A stretch of 64,000 nucleotides of DNA. It comes from Alphaproteobacteria bacterium (GTDB lineage Bacteria > Pseudomonadota > Alphaproteobacteria > CAAHEQ01 > UBA3637). The notes beneath the pieces are model-generated. The model saw nothing but the letters and a program-made list of their open reading frames with translations. It had not been told where the DNA came from and did no database searches. This document shows positions 32,526-49,339 of the stretch, piece by piece. Where the stretch lies: positions 408-64,407 of the forward strand of contig JAZOOQ010000006.1 of assembly GCA_045655105.1 (NCBI GenBank). Reading direction: 5' to 3'. A program made the translations under genes and the position numbers. How positions within the stretch are numbered: position 1 is the stretch's first letter; every line of letters starts with the position of its first letter.

Positions 32526-33515
32526 TTATGTTACTTCTGTAACCGCTCGGATATTTCCATCACGATTAATTTGCACAACGCGTAATTTTTCTTTCATCTC
32601 TCGGTATGTTTTTTCACGATCAGTTGTTGGATAGGAATGCAAAATTCGCCCAATAAACGCTTTATAAGCAGCATCTGGGCTTTCTGCGTGAATTGTTGCA
32701 AAACAGTTTTCATGACCTGATCCCATTAATTCCCATAGGGCCCCAGCATTTGAAGTTGAAATTTCACCGCCAATAATAGCATCTGGAGTAAAACGAACAG
32801 CAAGGTCGATTACTTTTTTATAATCAAAGTTATTTGTTAATTCTGTACGCGGTAAAACAATATGAACACGATTTTTGTGTGGCACAATAAGTTCCCGAGT
32901 ATCTTCAATTGTTAAAATACGTTTATGTGGATCTAAAACTTTAATTAAATTGTTTAAAAACGTTGTTTTACCCGTTGCTGTTGCGCCAGAAATTAAAACA
33001 TGGTCGCCTCTTTTTATTGAAAGCATTAAACGTTCAAAAGGATCATCAGGATCTTCTACTTGTTTTAATCTATTTAGTGGGCGTAATCTTTCTCCAACAC
33101 TAAGACCAAAATCACTCATAGAGATACTTACATCTTCTTTATAAACACGAATCGCCATGGCAATGCCACCAGTTAAGTCATTGTTATCATACATTACATT
33201 TCGACCTGCAATGCCCGTAAAACGATGACCACCAGGAAGTGTGGCATAAACTGTTGGAGTTCCTTGTGTTGGATCAAACGCATAATCATAAGAATTTGCA
33301 ATAATATACATAATATTATTGAGGTATTCACGTGTTAATTTTGGATCTTCATAATAATGCCATGGATGTGCATGTCGTCCGCGTAATCTAAGCCAGATTC
33401 CTCCTGGAGAATCAACAGCAACTTCTTCAACATTATCTTGATTATACCAATAGGATAAGGGTCTTAGAGCTGATTCTAAAACCCGATAGGTATCTGCAAT
33501 AGATAATTCCCCCAT
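32526..33515 (-). CDS. virB11: Type IV secretion ATPase VirB11
   Basis: Walker A GATATGKTT, ILTIEDTRELI, RFTPDAIIGGEIS, His-box ATIHA. Lies directly downstream of virB10. Confidence 0.9.
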   Translation of the reverse strand: MGELSIADTYRVLESALRPLSYWYNQDNVEEVAVDSPGGIWLRLRGRHAHPWHYYEDPKLTREYLNNIMYIIANSYDYAFDPTQGTPTVYATLPGGHRFTGIAGRNVMYDNNDLTGGIAMAIRVYKEDVSISMSDFGLSVGERLRPLNRLKQVEDPDDPFERLMLSIKRGDHVLISGATATGKTTFLNNLIKVLDPHKRILTIEDTRELIVPHKNRVHIVLPRTELTNNFDYKKVIDLAVRFTPDAIIGGEISTSNAGALWELMGSGHENCFATIHAESPDAAYKAFIGRILHSYPTTDREKTYREMKEKLRVVQINRDGNIRAVTEVT

Positions 33516-33529
33516 TTTTTTTATCCTTT

Positions 33530-36500
33530 TTAAAATAATCTATCAGACGAACCTGTTTTAGGAAGAACAGGAGTTACCTTTCTTTCTGATATAGGTTGTT
33601 TTTCAACGCTGTCGCCAGTATAAATAGCTTCATTTTGAGATTCATCTGATTCTTCTTCGCTATTATATTTATCTGAAGGTTTATAATATTTGCTATCATC
33701 AACATCAGAAGATTCCTCATCTTCTTCAGACTCTTCAGATTCTTCCTCATCTTCCTCATTTTCTTCATCTGTTGTTTCTTTTTGTGTATTTCTTGTTTCA
33801 ATCCATGAAGATGTGTCTGGTTTTTGAGCTTCTGTTGAAATTTCTTCTGCTTCAGAAATATCATCTTCTTCAGATCTTAACCATAAATCTTCGTTCGGGA
33901 ACACGGTTAAACGTGTGCCTGATGGAACATAAATAACAACAGGAATATTTGCTGAATCTTCAATAAGTTGATCAAAGATTGTTTGCATAGATTCGATAAA
34001 GTTTTCACGAGCATCATTTGCAGCTTCTGTTTTTGATGAAGTGATTGTATTTCCATACATATCTTGATACATATCATCATTTGTTGCCATCATATATGAA
34101 ATAGCTGAAGTGACAACGCTTGTCATAATTGGTTTACCGAATTTTTTAACCAATTCATCATCAAGATAAGCAGCAACACCACCACGGCCTTGAGCATCGC
34201 CTGAAGTTCCTTCAAATGAGAAGGCACCACCATCTGGACGAATAAGTCTTTGCCATGTGATTTCAAGTTTGGCTGCACGTTTGTCATTTCCTTGTTCACC
34301 AGCAAATGTTCCGATTAATCTTGAACCTGCTGGAATGATGATATTTCTACCTTTTTCTGAATAGATATGTCTTTCAACGATAGCTGTAACAGGCATTTCA
34401 GCATATCTTGAATCGATTGATCTTGTTAAGACGGCAGGGATTGCTTTATCTTTTAAGATCATGCGAGACATGTCAACAGGATAAGATGAAACAATTTTGT
34501 TAACACCAATAGATTTCCAGTCAGAATCTGCTTTTTTGCGAGCCATAGCCTTAATTTTAGAATTTGGTGTAATTAAACCTCTTGAACCCATTCCTGCTTT
34601 CATGCTTTCTCTTTTTTGAGAAAGAATTTCTTGCATTTGTTGAATTTGTTCAGGGGTTGGTTTCATCTTTTTGTTCCCAAAGTTCGGACGGATTCTACCA
34701 TGTTCATCACCATCTGGACTTAATGGACGACCATCTAAAGTCATTGGTCTTCCTTCTTGCATGAAACCAACGATTTCATTTTTATCATCTAAAATTGAAC
34801 CATCTGGTGTTACTTGATATAATTTATTACCAAAGGAAATTTTGCGAGAACCTGCTTGACCAGCTCCACCTTGAGCATTTCTTAAAGCTTCTAATTCTTC
34901 TTCTGAAAGAGACTTAATACCGCATTTATCCAAACGCAAATCAATGCCTTTGATTTGACCCATGTTGTTTCCATCTTTATCTTGCAATGTTCCGTTTTCA
35001 TGAATGGTAGCAAAAAGTTCTCCATTTAAACCAATGATAGATCCATTTGGTGTGATAGATGCGATTTTTTCATTTTGAAGATTGAAAACATCGCAACCTG
35101 AAATTTTACCAAAGACGTTTCCATTTGCATCTACAAGTAAACCGCTTTCGATATCGCTTGGAAGTTCTCCATTGTCACCTAATTGACCAATCACGTTACC
35201 ATTTTTATCAACAATTTCACCTGTTGGTAAAACTTGAGCAATGAAGTTTCCTTCGGCATCTTTAATCACCCCATCGGATCCGAAAGTTCCTTTGATATTA
35301 CCATTTTCATCATATAATATCTCTTCATCTCTTGAAACATTGCGGCCAATGATTTCTCCATTTGCGTTGACAACATTTCCATCTGCACGTAATGTGCCGA
35401 TTACTTCACCATTTTTGTTGACTACAGAACCATTTAATTTAACACGACCAATTGGTTTACCATCTTTTCCTAAAACAAGGCCACGTTCATGTGTTGCCCC
35501 AATGATTTCACCTGTTTTATGATCAACAACTGTGCCATCATTTTTGCTACAACCAATATTGATTCCATTGACATCAACAACCGTTGAGTCAGGCATTGTG
35601 CGTCCGATATATTTACCTTCTGGAGACATTACAATACCATTTCTTGTCAAGCGACCAATTTTTTCGCCAGAAGTGTTAACAGCCCACTTATCTGGCAATA
35701 TACGTCCAACAACGGTTCCTTTGGCATCAATTACTTGACCATTAAAGCCTGTTTGTCCAACAACTTTACAATCATTTGTAACTAAAGCAGATGATACCAA
35801 TGCTCCTGTGATTTTATAGGTGCCTTCTTTAACAGTTCCATTAACTGCAATTTTGCCTTTTAATTCACCAGAAGGAGACATGATTTGACCATTATGAATC
35901 AATGTTCCCATAAATGATCCATCTTGAGCAATAGCTGTGTGGAACGGTAAAATTGCGCCTGCTAATGGTTCATCTTTTCCTAAGATTGTTCCGTCATCTA
36001 AAATGCGAAGAGTTTTACTATCTGTGGCATCTAAAATATCACCAGAAAGGGTTGTTCGTCCTAAAACATCACCACGATAGCCAAATGGCAAACCTTGTTG
36101 AACAAGTCCACCTTTTTGAGGCATTGTGTTATATAAAGAACGATCTTGAATATCAGCAACAGATCCATCGCTAAGAGCTCTAGCCGTCATTTGATTATCT
36201 TTACCAATAACTGCACCATCTGCAGCAACTGTTCCAAGGATTTTTGCATCATCATCAACAGCTACACCGAATGGCGCTTTACCACCAGCCCAAAGATTAT
36301 CTTGTGTTAATGCAAAACCAAATGGCATTTGAACAGCAACAGTTTTTTCATCTTGATTCGTTATAGTTGCTGCTGTTTGTGTTTGACCGATTAAAAGACC
36401 TGATTTACCAACAAATGCTGTAACAGGTAAAGTCGTGCCACGAATATTTCCTTTATCATTATAAAGAGCTCTAATACCTGAAGCAGTGGATTCTTTTTTT

Positions 36501-39500
36501 CCTCTTAAGAAAATAGTTCCATTTAAACTTTCGCGACCAACGGTATTTAAAGCATTTGAAACTGCTGGACCTGCGTGTAAGACATTTCCTTGGATTTGTT
36601 TGATTAAATTTGAAGCCAAACCATTTGTCATGATAGAGCCAACAGGTTTTGATCCGCCAATTGTTAAAACACTACCATTTGTTGATACAATACCCATTGT
36701 TTTTGAAGCGCTATTTTCAGCAACAAATAAATCTTTATCAACTAATCTTGCAACAAAGTTCCCATCTTTTGTAATTGTTTCTGGAGCAATAACAAGACCT
36801 TTAATTTTACCTTGCGTATCAATTGCTTCACCATATTCATTAATCAAATATGTTGTTTGATTGTTATCCGTATATCCAACGGAATTTAAAGGAATAAATG
36901 TGCCTGTAATATCACCTTTTGCATTTGCAATACGGTTATCAGATAAAACATGCCCAAGTTGGGTTTTGCCAAGACCAACTCTGCCATCAGAATGAAGAAT
37001 TCCTGCAAATTTGCCAGAGTTATCAACAGCAATACCTTGCGGTAAAACTCTGCCAATTACTTCATCCATGTTGTTATAAATAAAGTCTGAAGCATAAAGA
37101 TATCCAGTATCTTTTTCAGTGCTAATGGTATTGTTAATTGCCATATAGCCAAGTAATTTCCCATTCGATTTAACAGCTAAACCTGTTTTTACAAGATATC
37201 CAATTTGAGTTCCTGCCTTATCAAGAGCAATACCATTTGACATTAATCTTCCAATTGATCTTGCATTTTTACCCAATAAATCAGCATCAAAACTTGTCCA
37301 ACCAATCAGTTCATTTTTTGTGTTAACATAAACACCAAATGGAAGCATTCTGCCGATAACACCTTCTTCGTTAATAACCAGACCAAATGGTGTTGCTTGA
37401 CCAACAATGTTGCCATTTTTATCCAAAATAGAACCTGTTACATTTGGATATCCAATTAATTCTTCTGGTGTAAATGCAACGCTTAAGCGTTTAAATACAC
37501 CACCTATAATTTTTTCATCTTGTGAAACTGCAATGCCATTCGCAAGGATTTTTCCAATAACTGTTTTCTTTAATGATACAACTTCACCTTTTGGTGTGAT
37601 TGATCCGATTTCTTTACCCAATATTGATAAAACCTTACCATGAGGCATTTCAAAACCAATAACTTTTCCATCTTTATCAGTTACTGTTTTGTTAGCTCTA
37701 ATGGCTCCAATGATATCGCCATCTGAATTTTTTAATGTGCCATCTACACTCATCGTGGCAAGATAGTTATTATCTAAATCAAGGAATGCAGTCTTGTCTG
37801 GGATTAAGGTACCAATGATTTGTTGAGTATCACCACTAACAGCCGTTAAATTTGGTAAAACACGAGCAAATCTTTCTCCTTCTTGATTAAGACCAAAACC
37901 AATTTTTGAGTTATAACGACCAAGAATTAAACCATCAGGTGAAACAATAACCCCATCAGGAGGAATCACACCTAAAAATTTTCCATTTGTAGCGGAAACA
38001 ATACCATCTTGATCAATAGTTCCAATTTCATTTCCATTGGCATCATAAACTTTATCACCCATCACAGTCCAACTGGTTGGATTTCCATTTGCATCTAAAA
38101 CAACGCCAGTAGGAGTGCCTGATTGACCATTATCACCAATAACAGTTCCTAAAATTTCTTTACCATCAATAGAAATTACAGATCCGTCTTCTTGAAGGCA
38201 GCCAATAACTTTTCCTTTTAAGTCCATTACTTTGCCGTCTAAGCGAACGCGACCAATCACAACTCCTTCGTTGTTTTTGACAATTCCTTTAATTGCTAAT
38301 GCACCAATAACTTTCCCAGCATTGTCAACAACTGTTTTATCTGGGGTAATACATCCAAAAGGTTCATTATTGGCATCTGTTAAATCGCCACCAAGAGTAA
38401 CAAGTCCTAATAAACGACAGCCATCCGCAATTGCAGATGCTCTTGGAACAACAACACCGATAATTCTATTTTGATCGTTACGGACATAACTATCCGTCAT
38501 GACTTTTCCAACTTGTTCAAGTGAATCATTAATGGCAATTCCGTTTGGGAAAACAGATCCAATTTGTTGACATCCAAATCCAATAACGCGTCCTTTGGGT
38601 AATACTGATCCAACTGTTTTTTTGCCAGCAGTTATTGATCCATCTGGATTAACGCAACCAATAACAGCTCCTTGTGGACCAACAGCTTTTCCTTCGGAGT
38701 TGATAAATCCAATAGGATTGCCTTTTTCATTAATAACAAGACCTAACTGAATAGCGCCACCAATATCTGTTCCTTCAGAATTTATTACACTACCATCAAT
38801 CAATGTTTTTCCAACAGTTTGATTATATGCATCACGCACTTCGCCATTTTGCATGATTTTCCCTGTTAATTGGCAACCTGGTGCAACAGCAACACCTTGA
38901 GGGATTGTACCCCCAATAAGATCATTTGTGTTATTTGTTACCAATCCGTTTGGTTTAACTGTTCCAAGAACGGAGTTTGCAGCATCCATAACAGATCCAT
39001 CAGGAATAATACCCCCGATAACATTACCAGTTAAGTCTGCAACCAAACCCCATGGTCTTAAAACACCCATTACGCGGTTATTTAAATTTGCAACAGCTCC
39101 ATTTGCAAGAGGTTTACCAATAACGGATCCTTTTTCGTTTACAACAGTTCCGTCTTTTAATAATTTACCGATAACATTTCCGGTCATATCCATTACAGAA
39201 ACAATTGGAATAGCTGCACCTAAAACATTTAATTCTGCATCCACAATGGTGTCATCACCTAATAAACGACCCAATTTATCTCCGTTTTCATTAATTACAT
39301 CCCCATTTGGCGCAATTTTACCCATGAGCTCATTTTTAAGGTTAAGAGGTAATTTTTCTGGAGTGGCAATTGCAACGATTTTACCATCTTTGTTAATATA
39401 TAATCCATTTTCAGTTGGTTTAATGACTTCACCATCGATAACGATAGAACCATCTTCCACAATAGGGTGCAACTTTCCATCAAGACCCATGGCGTATTTT

Positions 39501-40132
39501 TGTTCTTGAGCAGCATCATCTTTTGATGCGGTTTCACAAATAACACAATCTTTGGAATCAGTAGATTGAGCTTTTACTTGAACAGTTGTTTTCTTTTCTC
39601 TATCGGAAAAACCAGCAGCGGTTGCAGAATCTTCTTCCCATTGAATGGTTAAAACATTTTGAATTTGTCTTAAAGAAACAGGATTCCACAAAACTTTAAT
39701 TAAACATTCTTGTCCACTTGCTAAAGATTCATTTTCTTTACAAGTTGTTTCCATTGAAAATCCATCTTGTTGATTTTCAAGGAAAGTAGCTCCTTTATAA
39801 AGAACAGAACCATTTTCTGCTGTGAGTTTTATTAAAGCTTCAACTTGAGAACCAATAACAACGTTATTCATATCAATTTGTTCAGGAACAACTTTTAAAG
39901 AGACATCGCCCCTATCAAATCCTTGGAATTGACCTCCTTGAGCATCATTTTTAGTTTCATATTCATCGTCCCAGTCGATATTTTCCGTTGGAGTTTGAAC
40001 AGGCGCTTTTTCAGAAATAAAGGAAAGCGCTACAAAAAATACAATAAGAAGAAATAATCCACCAAACAAAAGTTTTCTGTTACTTTTTTTTACATATTGC
40101 TCACTTGAGCTTAATCCTCTGTTTTCTTTCAT
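33530..40132 (-). CDS. virB10: Giant VirB10-family protein (2,200 aa): TM anchor, beta-sandwich-like module, about 1,500 aa of 17-residue repeats, VirB10/TrbI domain, acidic tail
   Basis: C-terminal VirB10 domain at about nt 33880-34500 (AIPAVLTRSIDS, IIPAGSRLIG, RLIRPDG, DAQGRGGVAAYLDDELVKKFG). N-terminal TM helix LLFGGLFLLIVFFVALSFI. Lies between virB9 and virB11. Confidence 0.85.
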   Translation of the reverse strand: MKENRGLSSSEQYVKKSNRKLLFGGLFLLIVFFVALSFISEKAPVQTPTENIDWDDEYETKNDAQGGQFQGFDRGDVSLKVVPEQIDMNNVVIGSQVEALIKLTAENGSVLYKGATFLENQQDGFSMETTCKENESLASGQECLIKVLWNPVSLRQIQNVLTIQWEEDSATAAGFSDREKKTTVQVKAQSTDSKDCVICETASKDDAAQEQKYAMGLDGKLHPIVEDGSIVIDGEVIKPTENGLYINKDGKIVAIATPEKLPLNLKNELMGKIAPNGDVINENGDKLGRLLGDDTIVDAELNVLGAAIPIVSVMDMTGNVIGKLLKDGTVVNEKGSVIGKPLANGAVANLNNRVMGVLRPWGLVADLTGNVIGGIIPDGSVMDAANSVLGTVKPNGLVTNNTNDLIGGTIPQGVAVAPGCQLTGKIMQNGEVRDAYNQTVGKTLIDGSVINSEGTDIGGAIQLGLVINEKGNPIGFINSEGKAVGPQGAVIGCVNPDGSITAGKKTVGSVLPKGRVIGFGCQQIGSVFPNGIAINDSLEQVGKVMTDSYVRNDQNRIIGVVVPRASAIADGCRLLGLVTLGGDLTDANNEPFGCITPDKTVVDNAGKVIGALAIKGIVKNNEGVVIGRVRLDGKVMDLKGKVIGCLQEDGSVISIDGKEILGTVIGDNGQSGTPTGVVLDANGNPTSWTVMGDKVYDANGNEIGTIDQDGIVSATNGKFLGVIPPDGVIVSPDGLILGRYNSKIGFGLNQEGERFARVLPNLTAVSGDTQQIIGTLIPDKTAFLDLDNNYLATMSVDGTLKNSDGDIIGAIRANKTVTDKDGKVIGFEMPHGKVLSILGKEIGSITPKGEVVSLKKTVIGKILANGIAVSQDEKIIGGVFKRLSVAFTPEELIGYPNVTGSILDKNGNIVGQATPFGLVINEEGVIGRMLPFGVYVNTKNELIGWTSFDADLLGKNARSIGRLMSNGIALDKAGTQIGYLVKTGLAVKSNGKLLGYMAINNTISTEKDTGYLYASDFIYNNMDEVIGRVLPQGIAVDNSGKFAGILHSDGRVGLGKTQLGHVLSDNRIANAKGDITGTFIPLNSVGYTDNNQTTYLINEYGEAIDTQGKIKGLVIAPETITKDGNFVARLVDKDLFVAENSASKTMGIVSTNGSVLTIGGSKPVGSIMTNGLASNLIKQIQGNVLHAGPAVSNALNTVGRESLNGTIFLRGKKESTASGIRALYNDKGNIRGTTLPVTAFVGKSGLLIGQTQTAATITNQDEKTVAVQMPFGFALTQDNLWAGGKAPFGVAVDDDAKILGTVAADGAVIGKDNQMTARALSDGSVADIQDRSLYNTMPQKGGLVQQGLPFGYRGDVLGRTTLSGDILDATDSKTLRILDDGTILGKDEPLAGAILPFHTAIAQDGSFMGTLIHNGQIMSPSGELKGKIAVNGTVKEGTYKITGALVSSALVTNDCKVVGQTGFNGQVIDAKGTVVGRILPDKWAVNTSGEKIGRLTRNGIVMSPEGKYIGRTMPDSTVVDVNGINIGCSKNDGTVVDHKTGEIIGATHERGLVLGKDGKPIGRVKLNGSVVNKNGEVIGTLRADGNVVNANGEIIGRNVSRDEEILYDENGNIKGTFGSDGVIKDAEGNFIAQVLPTGEIVDKNGNVIGQLGDNGELPSDIESGLLVDANGNVFGKISGCDVFNLQNEKIASITPNGSIIGLNGELFATIHENGTLQDKDGNNMGQIKGIDLRLDKCGIKSLSEEELEALRNAQGGAGQAGSRKISFGNKLYQVTPDGSILDDKNEIVGFMQEGRPMTLDGRPLSPDGDEHGRIRPNFGNKKMKPTPEQIQQMQEILSQKRESMKAGMGSRGLITPNSKIKAMARKKADSDWKSIGVNKIVSSYPVDMSRMILKDKAIPAVLTRSIDSRYAEMPVTAIVERHIYSEKGRNIIIPAGSRLIGTFAGEQGNDKRAAKLEITWQRLIRPDGGAFSFEGTSGDAQGRGGVAAYLDDELVKKFGKPIMTSVVTSAISYMMATNDDMYQDMYGNTITSSKTEAANDARENFIESMQTIFDQLIEDSANIPVVIYVPSGTRLTVFPNEDLWLRSEEDDISEAEEISTEAQKPDTSSWIETRNTQKETTDEENEEDEEESEESEEDEESSDVDDSKYYKPSDKYNSEEESDESQNEAIYTGDSVEKQPISERKVTPVLPKTGSSDRLF
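34960..39490 (-). repeat. In-frame tandem array of a degenerate 17-aa (51-nt) coding repeat inside virB10
   Basis: Consecutive units parsed by hand include KLLKDGTVVNEKGSVIG, KPLANGAVANLNNRVMG, VLRPWGLVADLTGNVIG, GIIPDGSVMDAANSVLG and TVKPNGLVTNNTNDLIG. Consensus: x-h-x-P-[DN]-G-x-V-x-[DN]-x-x-G-x-h-I-G. Confidence 0.85.
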
Positions 40133-40187: not shown

Positions 40188-41924
40188 TTATTGAACGCGA
40201 ACAACTGAGCATCCAAATCCACGACGACCCAATCTTTTGCATAATTTATCTGCCAAAGTAATATCTTTAATTGGACCGACGCGTAAGCGGAATAATTCAC
40301 GCATATTGCTGTCTGCTGTTGTATCAACAGAATAATAAGGTTCATAACCGCTTAAAACATCTGCATTCTTATCAAGAATTTTTTCCCAAATTCCTTCAAG
40401 TTCAGTAATATCTGCATGTGTACCAAGTTCAATAGAAATTGTTTCGCTTGTGGCTAAACCGGAATTTCTTTGTGCTGAAATTGGCATTTGACTCATTACA
40501 CCAACAATCCCTGCAGATGCTTTTGGAGAGTTCACAACATTAGCTGGAATTGATTGAATCGGAGCCATGTTTGATGTATATACTGAACTGTTTGGTTGAA
40601 CATATCCCGGCATATAATTTTCAGTATATGTATCATACATTGATTCAACAGGATACATACCGTTTGTTTGTGGCATATATGTGTTTTGTTGATACATATC
40701 CATCATTTGAGGTCTTGGTGCTAATGGACTTTTTGTGATTTGTTTTTCTTCTGAATCAGCACCTAAAGTTGGATCATAAGCCGGAGCTTCTTTACTCATT
40801 ACGCTTGGTCGACCTGTATATGGAGAAACAGTCATATTTTCAGAACCGCTATAATCTGTATATTCAAGACCTGCACTTGGATCTCTTCTAAGTTTTAAAC
40901 AGATAAGTTTTTTACCATTTCTTAAAACCAAATCCCCAATAGCTTCAACAACAATTAAACGGCTATTTGGTCCCGTTGTTCTAAAACCAACAGGAACTTC
41001 TGTTTCTTGAACTAAAAGACTGACAACAGGGCGTTGAGTCATTGTTAAAGCTTTCGGTCCCAAATCAATGTATGTAAAAATATTATCGCGCCATACATTA
41101 TCTGGGGCAATATCCACATCTGATGGATTTGGAATATAAATATCAATATCAAAACGAATGTTTTCTGGATCTACAGGAATGCTTTGCAACCAATTTTTTG
41201 GGCCAGTTGAGGCGGTATTAATACCCAATTGGGGATTTTGACCACCACTTCTGCCAATTGCCCATCCTGGTGCTTTATTGGAGTTTAAAAACCCATTTCC
41301 AACTGCTCTATTTGTTGCACCATTCATACCACCTAAGCGGCCTCCATTTTCAACAGGAGTGTATCGTGGTCCAACTAATACATCAACAACAGATTGAGAA
41401 ATCTTTTCCGCATTATATGTTTCGCTTCTTAAATAGAAAACATATCGGTTACCTGAACGACCAAAAATAATCATATTGCTATCAACACCAATGTATGATG
41501 GGTCAGCATATAAAAGAAGAGAGTTTGGTGCTGCAATTTCACCACCAAAAGATTCTGGAGAACCGATATGAACTTTTTCAATTAACTCCCATGTTGGCAA
41601 GTTAATCAGAGTCATCATTCCTTCTCTTAAACGGATTGGTAAAATAACATCAGGTGACCAAGCATATTTTGAATATCCTGGTTTTGATTGACCTTCCCCT
41701 AAATGAGCCATTGGGTCATTCCATGCTTTTTGTTGCATGCCAAGAGAATGTAAATAATTTGGGTTAACAGATTCGTAATCGCCATTTGTTTGCGCAATAG
41801 CGTCGCTTAAACGTTCACTTTCAGCATCTGTAGGCAACCCCTCTGAATGTGCAACAACAGAAAATAAAACAAAAACAGCAGCTGTTGCCAGCCAACCTTG
41901 TCTGTGAAGTTTGTGTTTGAACAT
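40188..41924 (-). CDS. virB9: VirB9-family protein with Met/Tyr/Pro/Gln-rich linker and C-terminal SPOR domain
   Basis: Signal peptide (AAVFVLFSVVAHS). VirB9-like blocks (RYVFYLRS; NIFTYIDLGP ... PVVSLLV ... LIVVEAIGDLVLRNGKKLICLKLR). C-terminal 83 aa are SPOR-like (FRLRVGPIKDITLADKLCKRLGRRGFGCSVV). ATG 41924 is preceded by GAGGAG. Confidence 0.8.
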   Translation of the reverse strand: MFKHKLHRQGWLATAAVFVLFSVVAHSEGLPTDAESERLSDAIAQTNGDYESVNPNYLHSLGMQQKAWNDPMAHLGEGQSKPGYSKYAWSPDVILPIRLREGMMTLINLPTWELIEKVHIGSPESFGGEIAAPNSLLLYADPSYIGVDSNMIIFGRSGNRYVFYLRSETYNAEKISQSVVDVLVGPRYTPVENGGRLGGMNGATNRAVGNGFLNSNKAPGWAIGRSGGQNPQLGINTASTGPKNWLQSIPVDPENIRFDIDIYIPNPSDVDIAPDNVWRDNIFTYIDLGPKALTMTQRPVVSLLVQETEVPVGFRTTGPNSRLIVVEAIGDLVLRNGKKLICLKLRRDPSAGLEYTDYSGSENMTVSPYTGRPSVMSKEAPAYDPTLGADSEEKQITKSPLAPRPQMMDMYQQNTYMPQTNGMYPVESMYDTYTENYMPGYVQPNSSVYTSNMAPIQSIPANVVNSPKASAGIVGVMSQMPISAQRNSGLATSETISIELGTHADITELEGIWEKILDKNADVLSGYEPYYSVDTTADSNMRELFRLRVGPIKDITLADKLCKRLGRRGFGCSVVRVQ

Positions 41925-42081
41925 TGAATCTCTCCTCTTTATTTTTGTAATATATTTACACAATAAAACAAAAATATTTAAAAAGTCTAGCAAAAAATGA
42001 AAAAAGATGTGTTTTTAATAGAAAAAATTTTTCAAGGTTTTTTTTAGAAGTTTTTTAAGAGGGATTTTTTTGAAAAAATTA

Positions 42082-42780
42082 TTATGAATCAGCTTTTTTT
42101 ATCCCAAGTTGAATAACTGTAAATCCAAGTGGATTTTTTAGTCTTTCTTCCCAAGTTAAACCTTCTCTTGTGGGTCTAAAAGCAACATCCATTGTAACAA
42201 CCCATCTGGATTTTTGAGGTTCACTTGATAAGTGTTTCATTTCTGTAAATTCAACTTCTGTACGCCAAATGTTTTCATTTCTACTTGAGCGATAAGGGTT
42301 AACGACTAAAATTTTAACATTACGGGTCAACCCTTCTTCTTTAGCTTGTTTAATCCAATCTTCTGCATATTCAATAAATTTTGAATAAACGGTGCTTTCG
42401 CTCATCCAGTTAATTTCGCCATCAATCCCAGTGCGTCGTTCAAGTTCTTGAATGTTTGATCCAACGCTAAAATAGGAAAGCAAATACTGTCTTATAAAAG
42501 ATTCAGTCAGTGTTTGCATATTCATTTGGCTGAAGTTTGGGCGAACAACATTAATAACTTGTTCATTCTTATTAAGTGTTGTTAAGAAAAATGGTTGCAC
42601 TCTTACAATAGGCATTAATGAAACAAGAGCGCTAATAAGCATAATTGTTGTTAATGAAGAAACAACTAAAACAAGCGCAAAAGTGCGCGCCATCCAAAGA
42701 TAACGCCTTTCTTTAACGGCTTCTTCGGATAAATCTTGACCTTGTTTCTTTTTAACAGGTATTTGCTCGTTCATTGTCAT
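42082..42780 (-). CDS. virB8: VirB8-family protein (copy b)
   Basis: Short cytoplasmic N-terminus, one TM helix, periplasmic domain ending with the VirB8 signature NPLGFTV. Confidence 0.8.
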   Translation of the reverse strand: MTMNEQIPVKKKQGQDLSEEAVKERRYLWMARTFALVLVVSSLTTIMLISALVSLMPIVRVQPFFLTTLNKNEQVINVVRPNFSQMNMQTLTESFIRQYLLSYFSVGSNIQELERRTGIDGEINWMSESTVYSKFIEYAEDWIKQAKEEGLTRNVKILVVNPYRSSRNENIWRTEVEFTEMKHLSSEPQKSRWVVTMDVAFRPTREGLTWEERLKNPLGFTVIQLGIKKADS

Positions 42781-42798: not shown

Positions 42799-42978
42799 TT
42801 AAGATAACCATTCAGGAAGGGCAGGTGCTTTTTCAAGTTCAATGCATGCACATGGAGATTTTTTAAGTTCAGAATAATCTGGACCAATTCCAACTGGTTC
42901 TTTTTCATAAACACTGCCACAAGCAGCAGCTAAAGCAGCGATACCTAAAACAAATAAAATAACAAAATATTTTTTCAT
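42799..42978 (-). CDS. virB7: VirB7-like small lipoprotein (59 aa), absent from the supplied ORF track
   Basis: Hand translation: MKKYFVILFVLGIAALAAACGSVYEKEPVGIGPDYSELKKSPCACIELEKAPALPEWLS. Lipobox LAAAC. Located between the two virB8 genes, as rvhB7 is in Rickettsiales. Confidence 0.65.
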   Translation of the reverse strand: MKKYFVILFVLGIAALAAACGSVYEKEPVGIGPDYSELKKSPCACIELEKAPALPEWLS

Positions 42979-43066: not shown

Positions 43067-43744
43067 TTATTTTTTAACGGCCTCATCATATTTTTGAATG
43101 TAAAAGCCAAAAGGATTTGAAAAAGTTTGAGAATAAATATGTCTATTTGGATAATGACCAATTGTAAGGGTTGCTACACGTTGTTGTACCAGAGGTTTAA
43201 CAATTGGATCATATGGGTTGTAAAGAAAAACATCAAACTCAACAGTATAGGTATTTCCTAATTTTGAAATATTATTAATTTCAACACTTTGAGTTTCTTT
43301 TCCAGCGGCAATTTTCTTAATTTTTTCTTGAATATTTTTGGCAAATTTAGAGTATACAGTCGGTGAAGACAATCGTCTAATTTCCCCAGAACCACCCCAT
43401 CTAGCAGTCATTTCATCTTTATCAGCAAAATATGAAATTCTTCTATCAATATAATATCTGATTAACATTTCATCTAATAATTCGCGATTGGCTCGATTGC
43501 TATGTGATGTTGAATTCATTAATCTTTTTGCGGGTAATGTGTCAATCTGAATATGATCTAAGGTATGCATAGGGGAGGGTAAAATTTGAGCTACCACTTT
43601 TAGTTTTGGAGCCATTTGAACCAATGTTAAAACAATAAATAAATTGATAGCAATAGAAACAGCGGCTAAAGTCATCCAAAATTTAGCTAAATAAATGGCA
43701 ATTTTTCCACGTTTTTTTTGATCTTTAATAAAATAAGAAATCAC
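43067..43744 (-). CDS. virB8: VirB8-family protein (copy a)
   Basis: One TM helix; C-terminal NPFGFYI signature. GTG start directly abuts the upstream stop (TAAGTG), with GGAGG 8 nt upstream. Confidence 0.75.
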   Translation of the reverse strand: MISYFIKDQKKRGKIAIYLAKFWMTLAAVSIAINLFIVLTLVQMAPKLKVVAQILPSPMHTLDHIQIDTLPAKRLMNSTSHSNRANRELLDEMLIRYYIDRRISYFADKDEMTARWGGSGEIRRLSSPTVYSKFAKNIQEKIKKIAAGKETQSVEINNISKLGNTYTVEFDVFLYNPYDPIVKPLVQQRVATLTIGHYPNRHIYSQTFSNPFGFYIQKYDEAVKK

Positions 43745-45289
43745 TTAAAGACCTCCATTTAAACAGCTTTTGCTAATTTTTTTATTATAATGTTTTTTAA
43801 TATCCACGTTATTCTTTTTTTCAAGTTCTTCATAAAGAGCAATTTCTGCTTTTTTTTGTTTTAAAAGATGATCAATTTCTTGAGCATTAACCACTGTAAA
43901 ATTAACATCTCCATTTATGTCTTTTTCAAGAGCGTTAACATAATTAAAATCTTGATAAGCTTGAGATGAATAGATGATTTGTTTAAGCTGTCTATATTCT
44001 TCTGTATCTTTTGGGATTTTATTTAAAGCATTTAATTGTTCAACATAAGACATTTTTAAATAAAGTTTAAAGGATTCAGTTTTGTTTTTTGTATCAACAA
44101 CATCTGAATGTGTTCTTGTGATTTTTTCACGAACAATTTTAATATTTTTATTTTTAAGATTTAATAATTCTTCTTCTAAAGCCATAATAGAATCAACATT
44201 ATCACCTTTAATTTCATTTGTGACGCCAAGATTTTTTAAACGTTGATTTAATTCGTTTATAGTTGTTTCTTTTTTGTTTGTTATAAGATTTAAAATGTTT
44301 TCGGAGTTTGTTTTTTCTTTTTTGATAGCTTGGTAAACGTTTAACCGATTGTTTTGTTCCTGAATATCTTTATGTCTAGCTTCTTCATTTAAAACAAGTG
44401 TTTTCGAAAAAAATATTTTTGACATTTCTCCATTGGGGTTATATGTATTAAATCCACTTTGAATAAATTCTTTCCATGGTTTTGGCCATTCTGGAAAAAC
44501 GGATTTTGTTTTTGCTGGATCATCATTAAACCACATAATTTCATGAGCTGGAGGTAAAGCTTTTGGTGGTTTAGGAAAGTTTTTTTGACTTTCAGATAAT
44601 CTTTGTGCTTGGTCTGGTGTTAGTGTGGATAAAAATGATTTATATGCCAATTCATTTTTTTCAAAATCATTTTCAGCACTAATTCCTGCAATTCGGCCTG
44701 TTCGTCCTAAAATTTTATTTATGTTCATTAAAAAAGAATTAACTTCTTCTTGGTAAGAATATTTTTGATCTTCCCATAATTCGAAAGACTTACCTTCTTT
44801 TACTTGACCATATTTTGATGGATTAGCATAAACGTCTGTTAAAATTTCTCTGCCCAAATACCAGTTAGCAAAAAGTTCTGCCTGAGCATCTTCTCCTGTG
44901 CTTGTTTTTTTCGGAACACTGTTTAAAATATCAACTGTTAATTTTAATTCTTGTTCATCATAAGCCTGAGTGATATTTTGCCAAGCAGCTTTTGGATTTT
45001 CATAAACATCAGCAAGTAAATTAATATTGCATTCTTCCATCGCGTTATATTTTTGGTTAATTAAATCAACGCGCAGTTTTTCATGCTCTTCTTCTTTATA
45101 TTTTTCTTTTAATTTTTTAAGTTTGAGTTGCATAGCATGAAGTTGCTCAAGATAGATAATTTCAGTTGTGTAATCATCTGTTTCAATCACTGCTTGAGAT
45201 TCATTTTCAACTGGCGCATTTGCTTGAGTTAAACTGATAAATGAAAAAAATGAAATACCTGTTAATGCAAATAATAGAAAATGTTTCAT
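43745..45289 (-). CDS. Secreted coiled-coil protein P6 (514 aa), T4SS-linked, unknown function
   Basis: Signal peptide MKHFLLFALTGISFFSFISLTQA. Lys/Glu-rich heptad-like segments. Its stop abuts the virB8a start. Confidence 0.6.
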   Translation of the reverse strand: MKHFLLFALTGISFFSFISLTQANAPVENESQAVIETDDYTTEIIYLEQLHAMQLKLKKLKEKYKEEEHEKLRVDLINQKYNAMEECNINLLADVYENPKAAWQNITQAYDEQELKLTVDILNSVPKKTSTGEDAQAELFANWYLGREILTDVYANPSKYGQVKEGKSFELWEDQKYSYQEEVNSFLMNINKILGRTGRIAGISAENDFEKNELAYKSFLSTLTPDQAQRLSESQKNFPKPPKALPPAHEIMWFNDDPAKTKSVFPEWPKPWKEFIQSGFNTYNPNGEMSKIFFSKTLVLNEEARHKDIQEQNNRLNVYQAIKKEKTNSENILNLITNKKETTINELNQRLKNLGVTNEIKGDNVDSIMALEEELLNLKNKNIKIVREKITRTHSDVVDTKNKTESFKLYLKMSYVEQLNALNKIPKDTEEYRQLKQIIYSSQAYQDFNYVNALEKDINGDVNFTVVNAQEIDHLLKQKKAEIALYEELEKKNNVDIKKHYNKKISKSCLNGGL

Positions 45290-45291
45290 TA

Positions 45292-46071
45292 TTAATTTTC
45301 CTCCGGCAACTCTTCTTCAGGGTTCCAATATGTTTTATGTCTTTTTGCGGTTGCAAGTCCAAGTAGCGCATTATATTGTAATTGAGCGGCTCTTAATTGT
45401 TTTTGAATCATAAGTAATTTAATCCAAGCAATTTTTGCAGCAGCAGTTCTTAATAAGAGCTTTGGTTTGTTTTCGTTGTTTTCTAAAGAATTTTGATTTG
45501 ACGCTTGTCTTGATGAGTTATCGATATCCTTTTCCATTTCATCAATGATATCAAATATTTTTTTGGTTTGATGTTTTAAAACCAATATTCTTGCCATCAT
45601 CTGAATATTGGCTTGTTGACGAATATATTGTCTTTTTTTAACAAAATTATAATCACCTTCATGATCAGCAAAAGGCATATCAGCATAAATTTTCATATTG
45701 CTTTTCATAAGGGTTTCAACTTTTGATGAGGCAGGATCTGGATATTCAACAACAATATCTTTTGGCGGTTCTTTTCCTTCAACAAAATCGCCAGGATTTG
45801 CAGAATCGTTATTTCCTAAAACCGAAGATGGATTTGGAAGGTCAGAGATTGTTTGATTGACAAGAGCATTTCCTTGTTCGGTTATATAATTAAATTGTTT
45901 GTTAGCTTCAGCTGCGCCTCTTGAAATCGTATCAGCAGTGCTTCCTGGTTCTAAAACTGGACCACCAACACCAGCAATCCAACATGGATCACAAGGCATG
46001 CATACTGAGGAATATGCTGACAGAGGAGTTGTGGTCAAAAATATGAAAAGAATATAAGGTGTTATTTTCAT
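45292..46071 (-). CDS. Secreted protein P5 (259 aa), T4SS-linked, unknown function
   Basis: Signal peptide, Cys-rich mature N-terminus (SVCMPCDPCW), helical C-terminal half. Its start overlaps the P4 stop (ATGA). Confidence 0.6.
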   Translation of the reverse strand: MKITPYILFIFLTTTPLSAYSSVCMPCDPCWIAGVGGPVLEPGSTADTISRGAAEANKQFNYITEQGNALVNQTISDLPNPSSVLGNNDSANPGDFVEGKEPPKDIVVEYPDPASSKVETLMKSNMKIYADMPFADHEGDYNFVKKRQYIRQQANIQMMARILVLKHQTKKIFDIIDEMEKDIDNSSRQASNQNSLENNENKPKLLLRTAAAKIAWIKLLMIQKQLRAAQLQYNALLGLATAKRHKTYWNPEEELPEEN

Positions 46072-46787
46072 TTTGAACCTCCTTGTGTTGTTACGCTAGG
46101 ATCGTTTGGTTTAAGTTCTAAAATGGTCGGTGATTCTTTAATAAATTGTTGAACAACATCAGATTCCATTTGAACAATTTGAATAATAATTTGAGATGCA
46201 AGTATTTTCATTTGAGCTTTGATATTGCGGTTCATCATGGCATTACTTTGTGTTTGATTGCATCCTTTTGCAGACGCACCATGAAGGGATTGCAAATCTT
46301 CAATATAAAGTGGGCGCAATTGTTGAGATAAAGCATAGGATTCAGCTGCAATTTCTGCAGCGAACGCCATTCTGTTTTGAAGCTTTGTTTTTGCTGATTC
46401 TTTATCATCTTTAGATACAAAAAACTTTTCTTTCAACATCTTAACAGCATCATCAAACTTTTCTTGCGGTGAGATGTATACTGATTTAAACATATTCATA
46501 ATATTATCTTTCAGATAATCATAAGTTTTTGATGAGAGTTCTGTTTTTTCATTTGAAGGGGCGTTGCTGCAATTGGCATTCCCAGATCTGGTTTCATTTG
46601 CGGTTTCTTCTTGTGCAACAACTTCATTACTTAAAGAGGCTGTTAATTGTGTTGCCATGTTGCTGCCAGCAAGCATTGGAATATTGCTTACATCGGTAAC
46701 CGGGCAAACTTGACCAAGGGCGGTATGACATAATAACCCAGCGAATAAAAAAGAAGAAAATAGATGTATTTTAAAGTTTTTTTTCAT
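46068..46787 (-). CDS. Secreted protein P4 (239 aa), tentatively VirB5/TrbJ-like
   Basis: Signal peptide then QVCPVTDVSNI, resembling the Q-[IL]-P-V-[TI]-D mature N-terminus of VirB5/TrbJ. Helical; typical VirB5 size. Confidence 0.5.
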   Translation of the reverse strand: MKKNFKIHLFSSFLFAGLLCHTALGQVCPVTDVSNIPMLAGSNMATQLTASLSNEVVAQEETANETRSGNANCSNAPSNEKTELSSKTYDYLKDNIMNMFKSVYISPQEKFDDAVKMLKEKFFVSKDDKESAKTKLQNRMAFAAEIAAESYALSQQLRPLYIEDLQSLHGASAKGCNQTQSNAMMNRNIKAQMKILASQIIIQIVQMESDVVQQFIKESPTILELKPNDPSVTTQGGSK

Positions 46788-46798
46788 TTTTTTCTCCT

Positions 46799-47557: not shown

Positions 47558-47566
47558 GTTATCCTC

Positions 47567-49287: not shown

Positions 49288-49339
49288 TAGGCCCCCCATG
49301 CATATGTTTTATTGATTAGTATATATATTCTATTTTACA

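What the first reader, a model, noticed from the sequence alone, without database searches (positions are those of the whole stretch)
33530..40132. CagY-like giant VirB10 (2,200 aa) in an rvh-type alphaproteobacterial T4SS
ORF 33530..40132 is one uninterrupted 2,200-codon frame. Only about nt 33880-34500 looks like the canonical VirB10/TrbI C-terminal domain (YPVDMSRMILKDKAIPAVL, IIPAGSRLIG, RLIRPDG, DAQGRGGVAAYLDDELVKKFG). The N-terminus has the expected short cytoplasmic stretch and a single TM helix. Canonical VirB10 proteins are a few hundred residues long. Here about 1,500 residues of tandem repeat lie between the membrane anchor and the VirB10 domain. The only well-known VirB10 homologue of comparable size is Helicobacter pylori CagY, and its repeats are unrelated in sequence. 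A subunit that normally bridges inner and outer membrane but is 4-5 times too long implies a large extra appendage or a reorganised core complex.
Basis: partly seen in the sequence, partly recalled or inferred. Interest (0 to 1): 0.85.

Follow-up and report, generated by a model that had tools for sequence, protein, structure and literature searches.

The report
Giant beta-hairpin-repeat VirB10 secretion subunit
This is a real, strongly conserved 2,200-residue version of VirB10, the type IV secretion protein that links the inner and outer membranes. Its usual flexible linker is replaced by about 90 disulfide-stapled beta-hairpin repeats, and the protein defines an apparently undescribed family in uncultured gut Alphaproteobacteria.

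Summary
Window 33530-40132 (minus strand) is one 2,200-codon ORF.

**Domain order**
- a conserved cytoplasmic tail and one TM helix
- a PapD/ASH-like Ig domain
- about 1,550 aa of 17-residue beta-hairpin repeats (Pfam beta-flower/DUF3659)
- a helical linker
- a canonical TrbI/VirB10 barrel with two antenna helices
- an acidic tail

**Why it is not an artefact or pseudogene**
- 111 full-length 90%-identity clusters, 2,133-2,609 aa (median 2,206), share this architecture down to 28% identity.
- dN/dS of the repeats is about 0.03.
- Orthologous repeat units are more alike than paralogous ones, and there is no DNA-level repeat. The array is therefore old and stable, unlike CagY.

**Location and packing of the repeats**
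- Cysteine pairs spaced exactly 73 residues apart are gained and lost together across orthologues. This suggests disulfides between hairpin n and about n+4, in an oxidising compartment.
- In a sister clade the protein is split into a TM-anchored N-half and a C-half with a Sec signal peptide. This puts both repeat blocks in the periplasm.

**Context**
- Gene order is virB8-virB7-virB8-virB9(SPOR)-virB10-virB11, as in the Rickettsia rvh locus.
- VirB4, VirB6 and VirD4 are not in the window.

**Reading**
- A rigid periplasmic strut, cage or collar made by VirB10. This is a new variant of a known kind.
- I could not inspect the predicted 3D arrangement of the repeats.

The parts
33530..40132 (-). 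Giant VirB10 gene (2,200 aa, 233 kDa)
   Evidence: ORF list and translation. Pfam TrbI, Bflower_2, Bflower and DUF3659 hits. Full-length orthologues of 2,133-2,609 aa. dN/dS.
40013..40132 (-). Cytoplasmic tail (aa 1-20, with the family-wide motif SSSEQYxKKSNR) and single TM helix (aa 21-40)
   Evidence: Translation. The motif is nearly invariant in the 84-sequence alignment. It is kept in the split N-halves as HSEKYIKKTNR.
39560..39901 (-). PapD/ASH/MSP-like Ig beta-sandwich domain (aa ~78-191). Four invariant Cys lie at aa 131, 143, 196 and 199; the last two are just C-terminal of the fold.
   Evidence: AF2 strands, model residues 38-151. Foldseek probability 1.0 to CEP192 ASH, HYDIN PapD-like and MSP domains. 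Cys invariance.
34739..39496 (-). Array of about 90 beta-hairpins with a 17-aa period (aa ~213-1798); beta-flower/DUF3659-type repeats with co-varying Cys pairs
   Evidence: AF2 pLDDT 84.4/pTM 0.79 and pLDDT 80.1/pTM 0.66. Cys pair co-occurrence. No solved homologue.
34589..34654 (-). Linker helix (aa 1827-1848) between the repeats and the TrbI domain
   Evidence: AF2 DSSP, model residues H828-849.
33878..34459 (-). TrbI/VirB10 C-terminal barrel (aa 1892-2085), including two long antenna helices at aa 1989-2016 and 2033-2061 (nt 33950-34168)
   Evidence: Pfam, NCBIfam, PDB sequence hits, Foldseek to 6gyb, 7o3j, 2bhv, 6x6s, 3jqo and 9ngw, DSSP.
33533..33862 (-). Acidic Glu/Ser/Asp-rich C-terminal tail (aa 2091-2200)
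   Evidence: Composition E 23%, S 15%, D 12%. A tail of 77-159 aa is present in all orthologues. Least constrained region, dN/dS 0.13-0.43.
32526..33515 (-). VirB11 ATPase gene, immediately downstream
   Evidence: Pfam T2SSE and NCBIfam VirB11 TIGR02788, E = 3.9e-39. 70-99% identical in related loci.
40188..41993 (-). VirB9/CagX gene with a C-terminal SPOR (peptidoglycan-binding) domain. The real start is probably the internal ATG at MFKHKL...
   Evidence: Pfam CagX aa 108-366 and SPOR aa 548-599. Aligns over aa 45-601 with the VirB9 of locus L009.
42082..42780 (-). VirB8 paralogue b
   Evidence: Pfam VirB8. 23% identical to paralogue a.
42799..42978 (-). VirB7-like 59-aa lipoprotein (lipobox LAAAC) between the two virB8 genes
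   Evidence: ORF and translation. 59-100% identical in L001-L009. A small gene is called at this position in L007-L011.
43067..43744 (-). VirB8 paralogue a
   Evidence: Pfam VirB8.
43745..49299 (-). Six co-oriented ORFs with signal peptides (514, 259, 239, 252, 257, 319 aa) and no family match. They are possible accessory components, but membership is unproven.
   Evidence: Translations. No Pfam or NCBIfam hits for any of the six; no PDB sequence hit for the three that were searched, the 259-, 239- and 252-aa ORFs. The 514-aa ORF is conserved upstream in close relatives. It is absent from that position in L007.

Best explanation
**Shown**
- The gene encodes the VirB10 scaffold subunit of a chromosomal, vertically inherited VirB-type (rvh-like gene order) type IV secretion system.
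- The host is an uncultured clade of gut Alphaproteobacteria.
- The protein has a short conserved cytoplasmic tail and one inner-membrane helix.
- Its C-terminal TrbI barrel carries a two-helix antenna.
- The usual proline-rich linker is replaced by an Ig-like domain plus about 90 17-residue beta-hairpins (about 163 kDa).
- The array is under strong purifying selection, is positionally conserved and has a nearly fixed length.
- The array carries conserved cysteine pairs. In a sister clade it is divided between a TM-anchored half and a Sec-exported half. Both points place it in the periplasm.

**Inferred**
- By homology, the barrel and antenna build the outer-membrane cap together with the VirB7 lipoprotein and VirB9.
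- The hairpins pack into one rigid all-beta body in which hairpin n touches about hairpin n+4, stapled by disulfides.
- With the usual 13-14 VirB10 copies per machine, these bodies would form a 2-2.5 MDa periplasmic palisade, cage or collar around the translocation channel.
- This structure would fix the distance between the inner-membrane and outer-membrane complexes and mechanically couple them.
- It would play the role proposed for the CagY and DotG repeat regions, but with an unrelated fold.
For: **VirB10 identity**
- all identify the C-terminal domain as VirB10.
- Antenna helices are predicted.
- The operon order is B8-B7-B8-B9-B10-B11, and it is the same in distant loci.

**Functional constraint**
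- 111 full-length clusters span 2,133-2,609 aa, with an interquartile range of 2,183-2,295.
- Repeat dN/dS is 0.03 at unsaturated dS.
- Orthologous units are 37-69% identical against 26% for paralogous units.
- Invariant positions within the repeat array are almost all turn glycines.

**Rigid all-beta body**
- AF2 gives pLDDT 84 and pTM 0.79 over 1,160 aa, and pLDDT above 90 over most of aa 1030-1650.
- Secondary structure agrees at 97% in the overlap of the two models.

**Periplasmic location and the n/n+4 contact**
- Cys420/493 occur together in 76 orthologues, are both absent in 7 and never occur singly.
- Cys521/594 give 73 both, 10 neither, 0 single.
- Cys572/645 are invariant.
- Cys1455/1528 give 33 both, 1 neither, 0 single.
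- All four pairs are exactly 73 residues apart.
- The split genes carry a signal peptide on the C-half.

**Precedent**
- The DotG and CagY repeat regions have been proposed to form the periplasmic collar (bioRxiv 10.1101/2023.03.22.533729).

**Feasibility (my arithmetic)**
- 14 x 163 kDa is about 2.3 MDa, or about 2,800 nm3.
- That volume fits a hollow cylinder about 25 nm tall and 16 nm wide with a 3-nm wall.
Against: - I could not inspect model coordinates or PAE. The shape of the repeat body (rod, stacked 4-fold flowers or curved solenoid) and its length are therefore unknown.
- A straight stack of about 22 layers could be longer than a normal periplasm.
- General residue covariation (Neff about 69) showed only short-range signal and no peak at 68-73 residues.
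- Stoichiometry is assumed from other T4SSs.
- No expression data exist, and the organism is uncultured.
- VirB4, VirB6, VirB2 and VirD4 are not in the window, so completeness of the machine is not shown for this genome. A VirD4 gene does lie near the cluster in L007.
Confidence: 0.6

Rival explanations
1. Envelope-anchoring module. The hairpin array mainly binds peptidoglycan or membrane lipid and fastens the machine to the cell wall, rather than acting as a strut or cage. This overlaps with the best explanation and does not exclude it.
For: [quoted passage not shown]
- The Pfam clan includes lipid-binding Tubby domains (PMC10584680).
- The adjacent VirB9 carries a SPOR peptidoglycan-binding domain. 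This shows a tendency in this system to acquire wall anchors.
Against: - No ligand-binding motif was identified.
- Invariant positions within the repeat array are structural (turn glycines and cysteines), not surface residues.
- Binding would not by itself explain why total length is held within about 10% over deep divergence.
Confidence: 0.2
2. Surface-exposed host- or target-cell interaction module. This follows the model proposed for the CagY middle repeat region: the repeats reach the cell surface and act as an adhesin or an immune-modulated switch.
For: - There is an analogy with CagY: a large, Cys-containing repeat region between the anchor and the VirB10 domain (PMC10706595).
- The bacteria live in animal guts.
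Against: - No DNA-level repeats exist that could drive recombination.
- Repeat units are positionally conserved and under strong purifying selection, with dN/dS of 0.03. This is the opposite of a variable surface antigen.
- Topology places the array between an inner-membrane helix and an outer-membrane barrel.
- The split variant exports its C-half with an ordinary Sec signal peptide, and its N-half is inner-membrane anchored.
Confidence: 0.12
3. Assembly artefact, gene fusion error or decaying pseudogene.
For: Repeat-rich genes in short-read MAGs are prone to mis-assembly, and the window comes from an uncultured organism.
Against: - The same architecture and length occur in more than 110 independent clusters from NCBI, ENA, JGI and Logan assemblies.
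- The DNA contains no repeats that could mislead an assembler.
- dN/dS is far below 1 throughout.
- The chance probability of the open frame is about 1e-75.
Confidence: 0.01

Closest known systems
Canonical VirB10/TrbI (A. tumefaciens VirB10, pKM101 TraF, R388 TrwE, Xanthomonas VirB10)
   Same: - Short cytoplasmic tail and a single inner-membrane helix.
- C-terminal TrbI beta-barrel with a two-helix antenna.
- Gene sits between virB9 and virB11.
- Foldseek probability 1.0 and TM-score (target-normalised) 0.5-0.56 to 6gyb, 7o3j and 3jqo.
   Different: - It is 4-5 times longer than the canonical proteins.
- The proline-rich periplasmic linker is replaced by an Ig-like domain plus about 90 beta-hairpins; proline is only 3.6% overall.
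- It carries an extra 110-aa acidic tail.
- NCBIfam equivalog scores fall below the cut-offs, at 112 bits against 220.
Helicobacter pylori CagY
   Same: - A VirB10 C-terminal domain preceded by a very large cysteine-containing repeat region.
- It belongs to an expanded T4SS.
- The repeat region has been proposed to form a periplasmic collar or contractile region.
   Different: - The repeats differ in sequence and type. Here they are 17-aa beta-hairpins of the beta-flower/DUF3659 kind.
- CagY repeats are DNA-level direct repeats that recombine and vary between strains (my knowledge; 'most polymorphic region' in PMC10706595).
- Here there is no DNA repeat, the units are positionally conserved, and dN/dS is 0.03.
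Legionella DotG (T4BSS)
   Same: A VirB10-like dome domain (Foldseek hit 9ngw) preceded by a repeat-rich middle region of variable copy number. That region has been proposed to form the 13-fold collar.
   Different: - DotG is about 1,050 aa (my knowledge) and has 10-residue repeats whose structure prediction is of low confidence.
- Here the repeats are predicted with high confidence as beta-hairpins, and the copy number is nearly fixed.
- The system here is VirB-type, not Dot/Icm.
Rickettsiales vir homolog (rvh) T4SS
   Same: - Duplicated, divergent VirB8 genes flank a VirB7 lipoprotein gene and are followed by virB9-virB10-virB11. This is the order in R. typhi (PMC4676284; window).
- The T4SS genes are scattered, with no virB4 or virB6 nearby.
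   Different: - RvhB10 is of ordinary size (my knowledge).
- virD4 does not follow virB11 here.
- Duplication of VirB4, VirB6 and VirB9 could not be tested.
- The host is a gut bacterium, and the distant relative P0114 has flagellar genes beside the cluster. It is not a known Rickettsiales member.
Beta-flower / DUF3659 repeat proteins (Pfam PF21784, PF21785, PF12396; Durairaj et al. 2023)
   Same: - HMM matches are well above the gathering scores: Bflower_2 at 212 bits against 38, in 9 stretches.
- The semi-conserved [DNEQ]xxG hairpin-tip motif is present.
- No relative in the PDB.
   Different: - Described beta-flowers are single ~96-residue barrels of 4-6 hairpins, often lipoproteins.
- Here about 90 hairpins form one continuous array fused to a secretion-system subunit.

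Membership tests
VirB10/TrbI (PF03743) | C-terminal TrbI beta-barrel domain above the Pfam gathering score | tested here: met
   115 bits against a cut-off of 35, aa 1892-2085, covering the full profile 2-188/188. PDB profile hit to ComB10 at E = 2.5e-25. Foldseek probability 1.0 to VirB10 C-terminal domains.
VirB10/TrbI (PF03743) | Two-helix antenna projection inside the barrel domain | tested here: met
   AF2 helices at aa 1989-2016 and 2033-2061. pLDDT is low there, as expected for a monomer model of an oligomeric pore.
VirB10/TrbI (PF03743) | Bitopic inner-membrane topology: short N-terminal cytoplasmic tail plus one TM helix | tested here: met
   Read directly from the sequence: a Lys/Arg-rich aa 1-20, then a 20-residue hydrophobic stretch. 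Conserved across the family. No dedicated TM predictor was available.
VirB10/TrbI (PF03743) | Encoded between virB9 and virB11 in a virB-type operon | tested here: met
VirB10/TrbI (PF03743) | Proline-rich periplasmic linker (typical rather than strictly defining) | tested here: not met
   Proline is 3.6% overall and there is no Pro-rich segment. An Ig-like domain plus hairpin repeats take its place.
rvh T4SS (Rickettsiales vir homolog) | Duplicated divergent VirB8 genes with virB7 between them, followed by virB9-virB10-virB11 | tested here: met
   Window genes 43067-43744, 42799-42978, 42082-42780, 40188-41993, 33530-40132 and 32526-33515. R. typhi order from PMC4676284.
rvh T4SS (Rickettsiales vir homolog) | virD4 directly downstream of virB11 | tested here: not met
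   The next gene is an AhpC-type peroxiredoxin on the other strand. In L007 virD4 lies about 6 kb upstream of the first virB8 on the opposite strand.
rvh T4SS (Rickettsiales vir homolog) | Several large VirB6 paralogues, duplicated VirB4 and VirB9, no VirB5 | not testable with these tools
   None of these genes is in the 64-kb window; every ORF of 500 aa or more was assigned to something else. The rest of the genome is not available.
CagY | Cag-type repeat regions built from DNA-level direct repeats that recombine | tested here: not met
   No tandem repeat array in the DNA. The repeats match beta-flower/DUF3659 models, not CagY. PDB CagY hits cover only the C-terminal domain.
Beta-flower (PF21784/PF21785, clan CL0395) | HMM match above the gathering score, with the [DNEQ]xxG hairpin-tip motif | tested here: met
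   Bflower_2 at 211.8 bits (cut-off 38). Bflower at 67.4 bits (cut-off 25). DUF3659 at 40.5 bits (cut-off 24.8). Unit consensus DGxVVDxxGxVIG.
Beta-flower (PF21784/PF21785, clan CL0395) | Closed shallow barrel of 4, 5 or 6 hairpins | tested here: inconclusive
   Model coordinates could not be inspected. Co-varying Cys pairs at i/i+73 indicate contact between hairpin n and about n+4. General covariation was uninformative.

The most novel reading that the evidence does not exclude
The disulfide-stapled hairpin arrays of 13-14 VirB10 subunits assemble side by side into a closed, rigid periplasmic tunnel or palisade. This structure would enclose the whole translocation channel and set the spacing between the membranes. 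No solved T4SS has such a core architecture.

In the split clade, an inner-membrane half-tunnel and an outer-membrane half-tunnel would dock non-covalently. That would show that VirB10's covalent link between the two membranes is dispensable.
Probability: 0.25. Interest if true: 0.8.

Novelty: new variant of a known kind. Interest (0 to 1): 0.62.

Why it matters
VirB10 is the only T4SS subunit that spans both membranes, and it is thought to carry ATP-driven signals to the outer-membrane gate. Its two known enlarged forms, CagY and DotG, have repeat regions whose structure and role remain unresolved.

This family is a third, independent enlargement with several useful properties:
- It uses a different fold that is predicted with high confidence.
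- Its length is nearly fixed.
- It has co-varying disulfide pairs.
- A natural split version exists.

Together these give a tractable comparative system for asking what a periplasmic VirB10 'collar' does. The family also shows that widespread, uncultured gut Alphaproteobacteria carry a conserved and probably active T4SS of unknown substrate.

Tried and rejected
**Steps that failed or gave nothing**
- The 98-sequence alignment exceeded the size limit. The 84-sequence alignment was too large for structure prediction. I used 35 diverse orthologues instead.
- Model coordinates are not exposed, so I could not measure the tertiary shape or length of the repeat body.
- Foldseek against the PDB found nothing global for the repeats. 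It gave only weak, poor-TM matches to Rhs/teneurin shells and mastigoneme, and marginal profile hits to NHL-type propellers at E = 0.008-0.1. I treat these as generic beta-hairpin resemblance, not homology.
- Mutual-information analysis, run to test the 4-hairpins-per-turn idea, showed only intra-hairpin and near-neighbour signal. It is inconclusive.
- Pfam and NCBIfam searches of the six secreted ORFs upstream gave nothing, and PDB sequence searches of three of them (the 259-, 239- and 252-aa ORFs) gave nothing significant.
- Literature searches for VirB10+DUF3659, RF32+T4SS and related terms found no prior description. This is absence in the held library only.

**Readings rejected**
- Pseudogene or artefact.
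- CagY homology of the repeats.
- DotG-type repeats.
- An Rhs-like cocoon.

Full report
**Observation**

The window has about 32% G+C. On the minus strand, 33530..40132 is a single ATG-initiated ORF of 2,200 codons. At this base composition about 7.6% of random codons are stops, so a stop-free run this long has a chance probability near 1e-75.

Pfam places a complete TrbI/VirB10 domain at aa 1892-2085 (nt 33878-34459; E = 4.6e-33, 115 bits against a cut-off of 35). NCBIfam VirB10 and ComB10 models match the same stretch. So do solved VirB10-family chains: ComB10 2bhv, Xanthomonas VirB10 6gyb, CagY and TrwE.

The N-terminus is a Lys/Arg-rich 20-residue tail followed by a 20-residue hydrophobic helix.

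**Anatomy of the protein**

Between the anchor and the TrbI domain lie two features.

- *An Ig-like domain.* AlphaFold2 was run on aa 41-1200 with 35 diverse orthologues (pLDDT 84.4, pTM 0.79). It gives a beta-sandwich at aa ~78-191. Foldseek matches this domain with probability 1.0 to PapD/ASH/MSP-type Ig domains such as CEP192, HYDIN and MSP. Four invariant cysteines lie at aa 131, 143, 196 and 199.
- *A very long array of 17-residue units.* Autocorrelation peaks fall at 17, 34 and 51 residues. The register holds almost perfectly for over 20 consecutive units. The consensus is DGxVVDxxGxVIG, and 52 units are detectable by a self-built HMM.

The two AF2 models agree at 97% in their overlap. 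Together they contain about 180 short strands, or about 90 hairpins, from aa ~213 to ~1798. pLDDT is above 90 over most of aa 1030-1650.

Pfam recognises the repeats as beta-flower (PF21785, 212 bits in 9 stretches; PF21784) and DUF3659. The beta-flower fold was described only in 2023 from AlphaFold models. It has a [DNEQ]xxG hairpin-tip motif and no relative in the PDB (PMC10584680). In line with this, neither sequence profiles nor Foldseek find a solved homologue of the array.

After the array come three more elements:
- a helix at aa 1827-1848;
- the TrbI barrel with two long antenna helices at aa 1989-2016 and 2033-2061, which resembles VirB10, TrwE, TraF, CagY and the DotG dome in fold;
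- a 110-residue Glu/Ser/Asp-rich tail.

**Is it real and functional?**

A search of 5.8 billion proteins returned 194 clusters. More than 110 of them are full-length proteins with the same domain set, at 97% down to 28% identity. Their lengths are 2,133-2,609 aa, with a median of 2,206 and an interquartile range of 2,183-2,295.

All share the cytoplasmic motif SSSEQYxKKSNR, the TM helix, the repeat block, the TrbI domain and a tail of 77-159 aa.

Against the orthologue in L005 (dS 0.32-0.42, unsaturated), dN/dS by region is as follows:

| Region | dN/dS |
|---|---|
| Repeats | 0.03 |
| TrbI domain | 0.004 |
| Tail | 0.25 |

Tandem Repeats Finder sees no repeat array in the DNA. Orthologous units are 37-69% identical, against 26% between units of the same protein. 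The array is therefore ancient and vertically inherited unit by unit, and it is not homogenised. Assembly artefact and pseudogene are excluded.

**Where is the array and how is it packed?**

Two lines of sequence evidence are independent of AlphaFold.

*Cysteine pairs.* The repeat cysteines come in pairs exactly 73 residues apart, and each pair is gained or lost together across orthologues.

| Pair | Both present | Neither | One only |
|---|---|---|---|
| 420/493 | 76 | 7 | 0 |
| 521/594 | 73 | 10 | 0 |
| 572/645 | 83 (invariant) | 0 | 0 |
| 1455/1528 | 33 | 1 | 0 |

This is the signature of disulfides, and so of an oxidising compartment. It also suggests a recurring contact between position 9 of hairpin n and the residue just after hairpin n+4. 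The pairs 521/594 and 572/645 interleave. That fits a continuous stack or superhelix with about four hairpins per turn better than isolated closed barrels.

*A naturally split version.* In a sister clade the protein is encoded by two genes.
- The N-half is 1,104-1,145 aa. It carries the same cytoplasmic motif, TM helix, Ig domain and hairpins, and always ends ...EVAKNRRN-stop.
- It is followed at once, behind a GGAGG ribosome-binding site, by the C-half. In this sister clade the C-halves are about 1,400-1,650 aa, with one of 1,888 aa. Each begins with a typical Sec signal peptide, then QEITAIDFNGDLLGK, more hairpins and the TrbI domain.
- This arrangement occurs in three independent assemblies, with two different frame relationships.
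- The signal-peptide C-half occurs in at least 12 clusters at 50% identity.

A TM-anchored N-half and a Sec-exported C-half place both repeat blocks in the periplasm.

The high pTM (0.79 over 1,160 residues) suggests a single rigid body rather than beads on a string. I could not inspect coordinates. A general covariation analysis was uninformative. The exact shape and length therefore remain open.

**Genomic context**

The gene sits in a block of co-oriented genes:

virB8a (43067-43744) → a 59-aa lipoprotein with lipobox LAAAC (42799-42978) → virB8b (42082-42780) → virB9 (40188-41993) → virB10 → virB11 (32526-33515)

- The small lipoprotein is 59-100% identical across all related loci. By position and type it is VirB7.
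- The same order is found at 28% VirB10 identity (L007 and L008) and in the split clade.
- It matches the R. typhi rvh islet rvhB8-II / rvhB7 / rvhB8-I / rvhB9-II / rvhB10 / rvhB11 (PMC4676284). This supports the 'rvh-like' label on gene order.
- virD4 does not follow virB11 here. In L007 it lies about 6 kb upstream of the first virB8 on the other strand.
- No VirB4, VirB6 or VirD4 is present in the window; every ORF of 500 aa or more is accounted for otherwise.
- The flanking genes are chromosomal housekeeping genes: rho, ileS, rne, htpG, mipZ, folD, surA and lptD.

Near-identical contigs are NCBI 'Alphaproteobacteria bacterium' MAGs from sheep rectum, roe deer colon and other metagenomes. 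A distant family member has flagellar genes beside the cluster.

An exhaustive HMMER scan with aa 1801-2100 gave a clear ranking. Full-length proteins among roughly the best 50 hits (E < 1e-54) all carry hairpin repeats; the repeat-free entries among them are short fragments or truncated records. Ordinary 500-630-aa VirB10s without hairpins start to appear around E = 1e-51 (P0175, 579 aa) and make up most hits from about 1e-45. The only ones that carry an organism name are from Microvirga and Holosporales MAGs. This suggests that the expansion arose once.

**Mechanism**

*Shown:*
- a functional VirB10 homologue under strong constraint;
- bitopic anchoring;
- an outer-membrane-type barrel with an antenna;
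- a periplasmic, all-beta repeat array with conserved, co-varying cysteine pairs and nearly fixed length.

*Inferred:*
- With the 13-14 copies usual for VirB10, CagY and DotG in other machines (my knowledge), the arrays would add about 2.3 MDa, or about 2,800 nm3. That is enough for a hollow cylinder about 25 nm tall and 16 nm wide with a 3-nm wall.
- I therefore favour a rigid periplasmic strut, palisade or collar. It would couple and space the inner-membrane and outer-membrane subassemblies, replacing the flexible proline-rich linker of minimal systems.
- The same role has been proposed, without structural proof, for the repeat regions of DotG and CagY (bioRxiv 10.1101/2023.03.22.533729; PMC10706595).
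- The fixed length would then reflect a geometric constraint.
- The conserved cytoplasmic motif is a candidate contact for the ATPases, by analogy with A. tumefaciens VirB10 (my knowledge).

*Rivals:*
- A peptidoglycan- or lipid-anchoring role is compatible with the favoured model. It is hinted at by beta-flower annotations and by the SPOR domain on VirB9.
- A surface-exposed CagY-like interaction module is disfavoured by topology, by the Sec/TM split and by the lack of variability.

**Comparison and novelty**

The protein is a member of the VirB10/TrbI family; all defining features tested were met except the typical proline-rich linker. It is not a CagY or DotG relative beyond the shared C-terminal domain. 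It resembles them in principle, as a repeat-expanded VirB10, but uses an unrelated and much more regular fold.

I found no paper linking VirB10 to beta-flower or DUF3659 repeats, or describing this family. Database names are only 'hypothetical', 'DUF3659 domain-containing' or 'TrbI/VirB10 family protein'.

I rate it a new variant of a known kind. It should interest T4SS structural biologists as a third, independent and structurally more tractable VirB10 expansion, with a natural split variant. Two limits apply: the organisms are uncultured, and I could not examine the 3D arrangement.

Noticed in passing
L009:6601-14638, L010:6686-14536, L011:3933-11795: In a sister clade the giant VirB10 is encoded as two adjacent genes. 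The N-half (1,104-1,145 aa) has the TM helix, Ig domain and hairpins and always ends ...EVAKNRRN-stop. The C-half in these three loci (1,511-1,545 aa) has a Sec signal peptide, hairpins and the TrbI domain. Related signal-peptide C-halves of about 1,400-1,900 aa form at least 12 clusters at 50% identity.
   Followed up: yes
window 40188-41993 (-): The VirB9/CagX homologue is 601 aa. It carries a low-complexity Q/P/M/Y-rich linker and a C-terminal SPOR (peptidoglycan-binding) domain, which is unusual for VirB9. It aligns through its C-terminus with the VirB9 of the distant locus L009.
   Followed up: partly
window 51382-54654 (-): A single 1,090-aa frame joins an LptF/LptG-type inner-membrane permease (aa 7-347) to a complete LptD (aa 409-1022). 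No stop codon separates them. The LptD signal peptide (MKNSFKLLLIATFCISANTAHS) lies internally at about aa 379. This is either a true fusion spanning both membranes or a lost stop codon.
   Followed up: partly
window 43745-49299 (-): Six consecutive ORFs (514, 259, 239, 252, 257, 319 aa) lie directly upstream of virB8a. All have N-terminal signal peptides and several are coiled-coil or Gln-rich. None has a Pfam or NCBIfam match, and the three searched against PDB sequences (259, 239, 252 aa) gave nothing significant. The 514-aa ORF is conserved but fast-evolving in close relatives (36-95% identity where VirB11 is 97-99%). They may be accessory T4SS or pilus-associated proteins.
   Followed up: partly
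window 42799-42978 (-): A 59-aa lipoprotein gene that falls below usual ORF-length thresholds lies between the two virB8 paralogues. It is 59-100% identical across all related loci and is likely VirB7.
   Followed up: yes
window 33530-40132 (-), aa 420/493, 521/594, 572/645, 1455/1528: Cysteine pairs spaced exactly 73 residues apart are always present together or absent together across 83 (or 34) orthologues. This suggests disulfide staples between hairpin n and about n+4.
   Followed up: yes
window 15321-18365 (-): A complete MmeI-family type IIL restriction-modification enzyme of 1,014 aa. All five MmeI Pfam domains match.
   Followed up: no
window 28430-31273 (+): A 947-aa autotransporter with a C-terminal beta-domain lies about 1.3 kb (one gene, an AhpC-type peroxiredoxin) from the virB11 end of the cluster, on the opposite strand. 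The passenger domain was not characterised.
   Followed up: no
one search list (P0199, P0201, P0206, P0210, P0232, P0233, P0236, P0240 and others): Many of the nearest normal-length VirB10 relatives (about 500-560 aa; the one such cluster with an organism name is from Holosporales MAGs) begin with a lipoprotein-type signal (…LTACG…) instead of a cytoplasmic tail plus TM helix.
   Followed up: no
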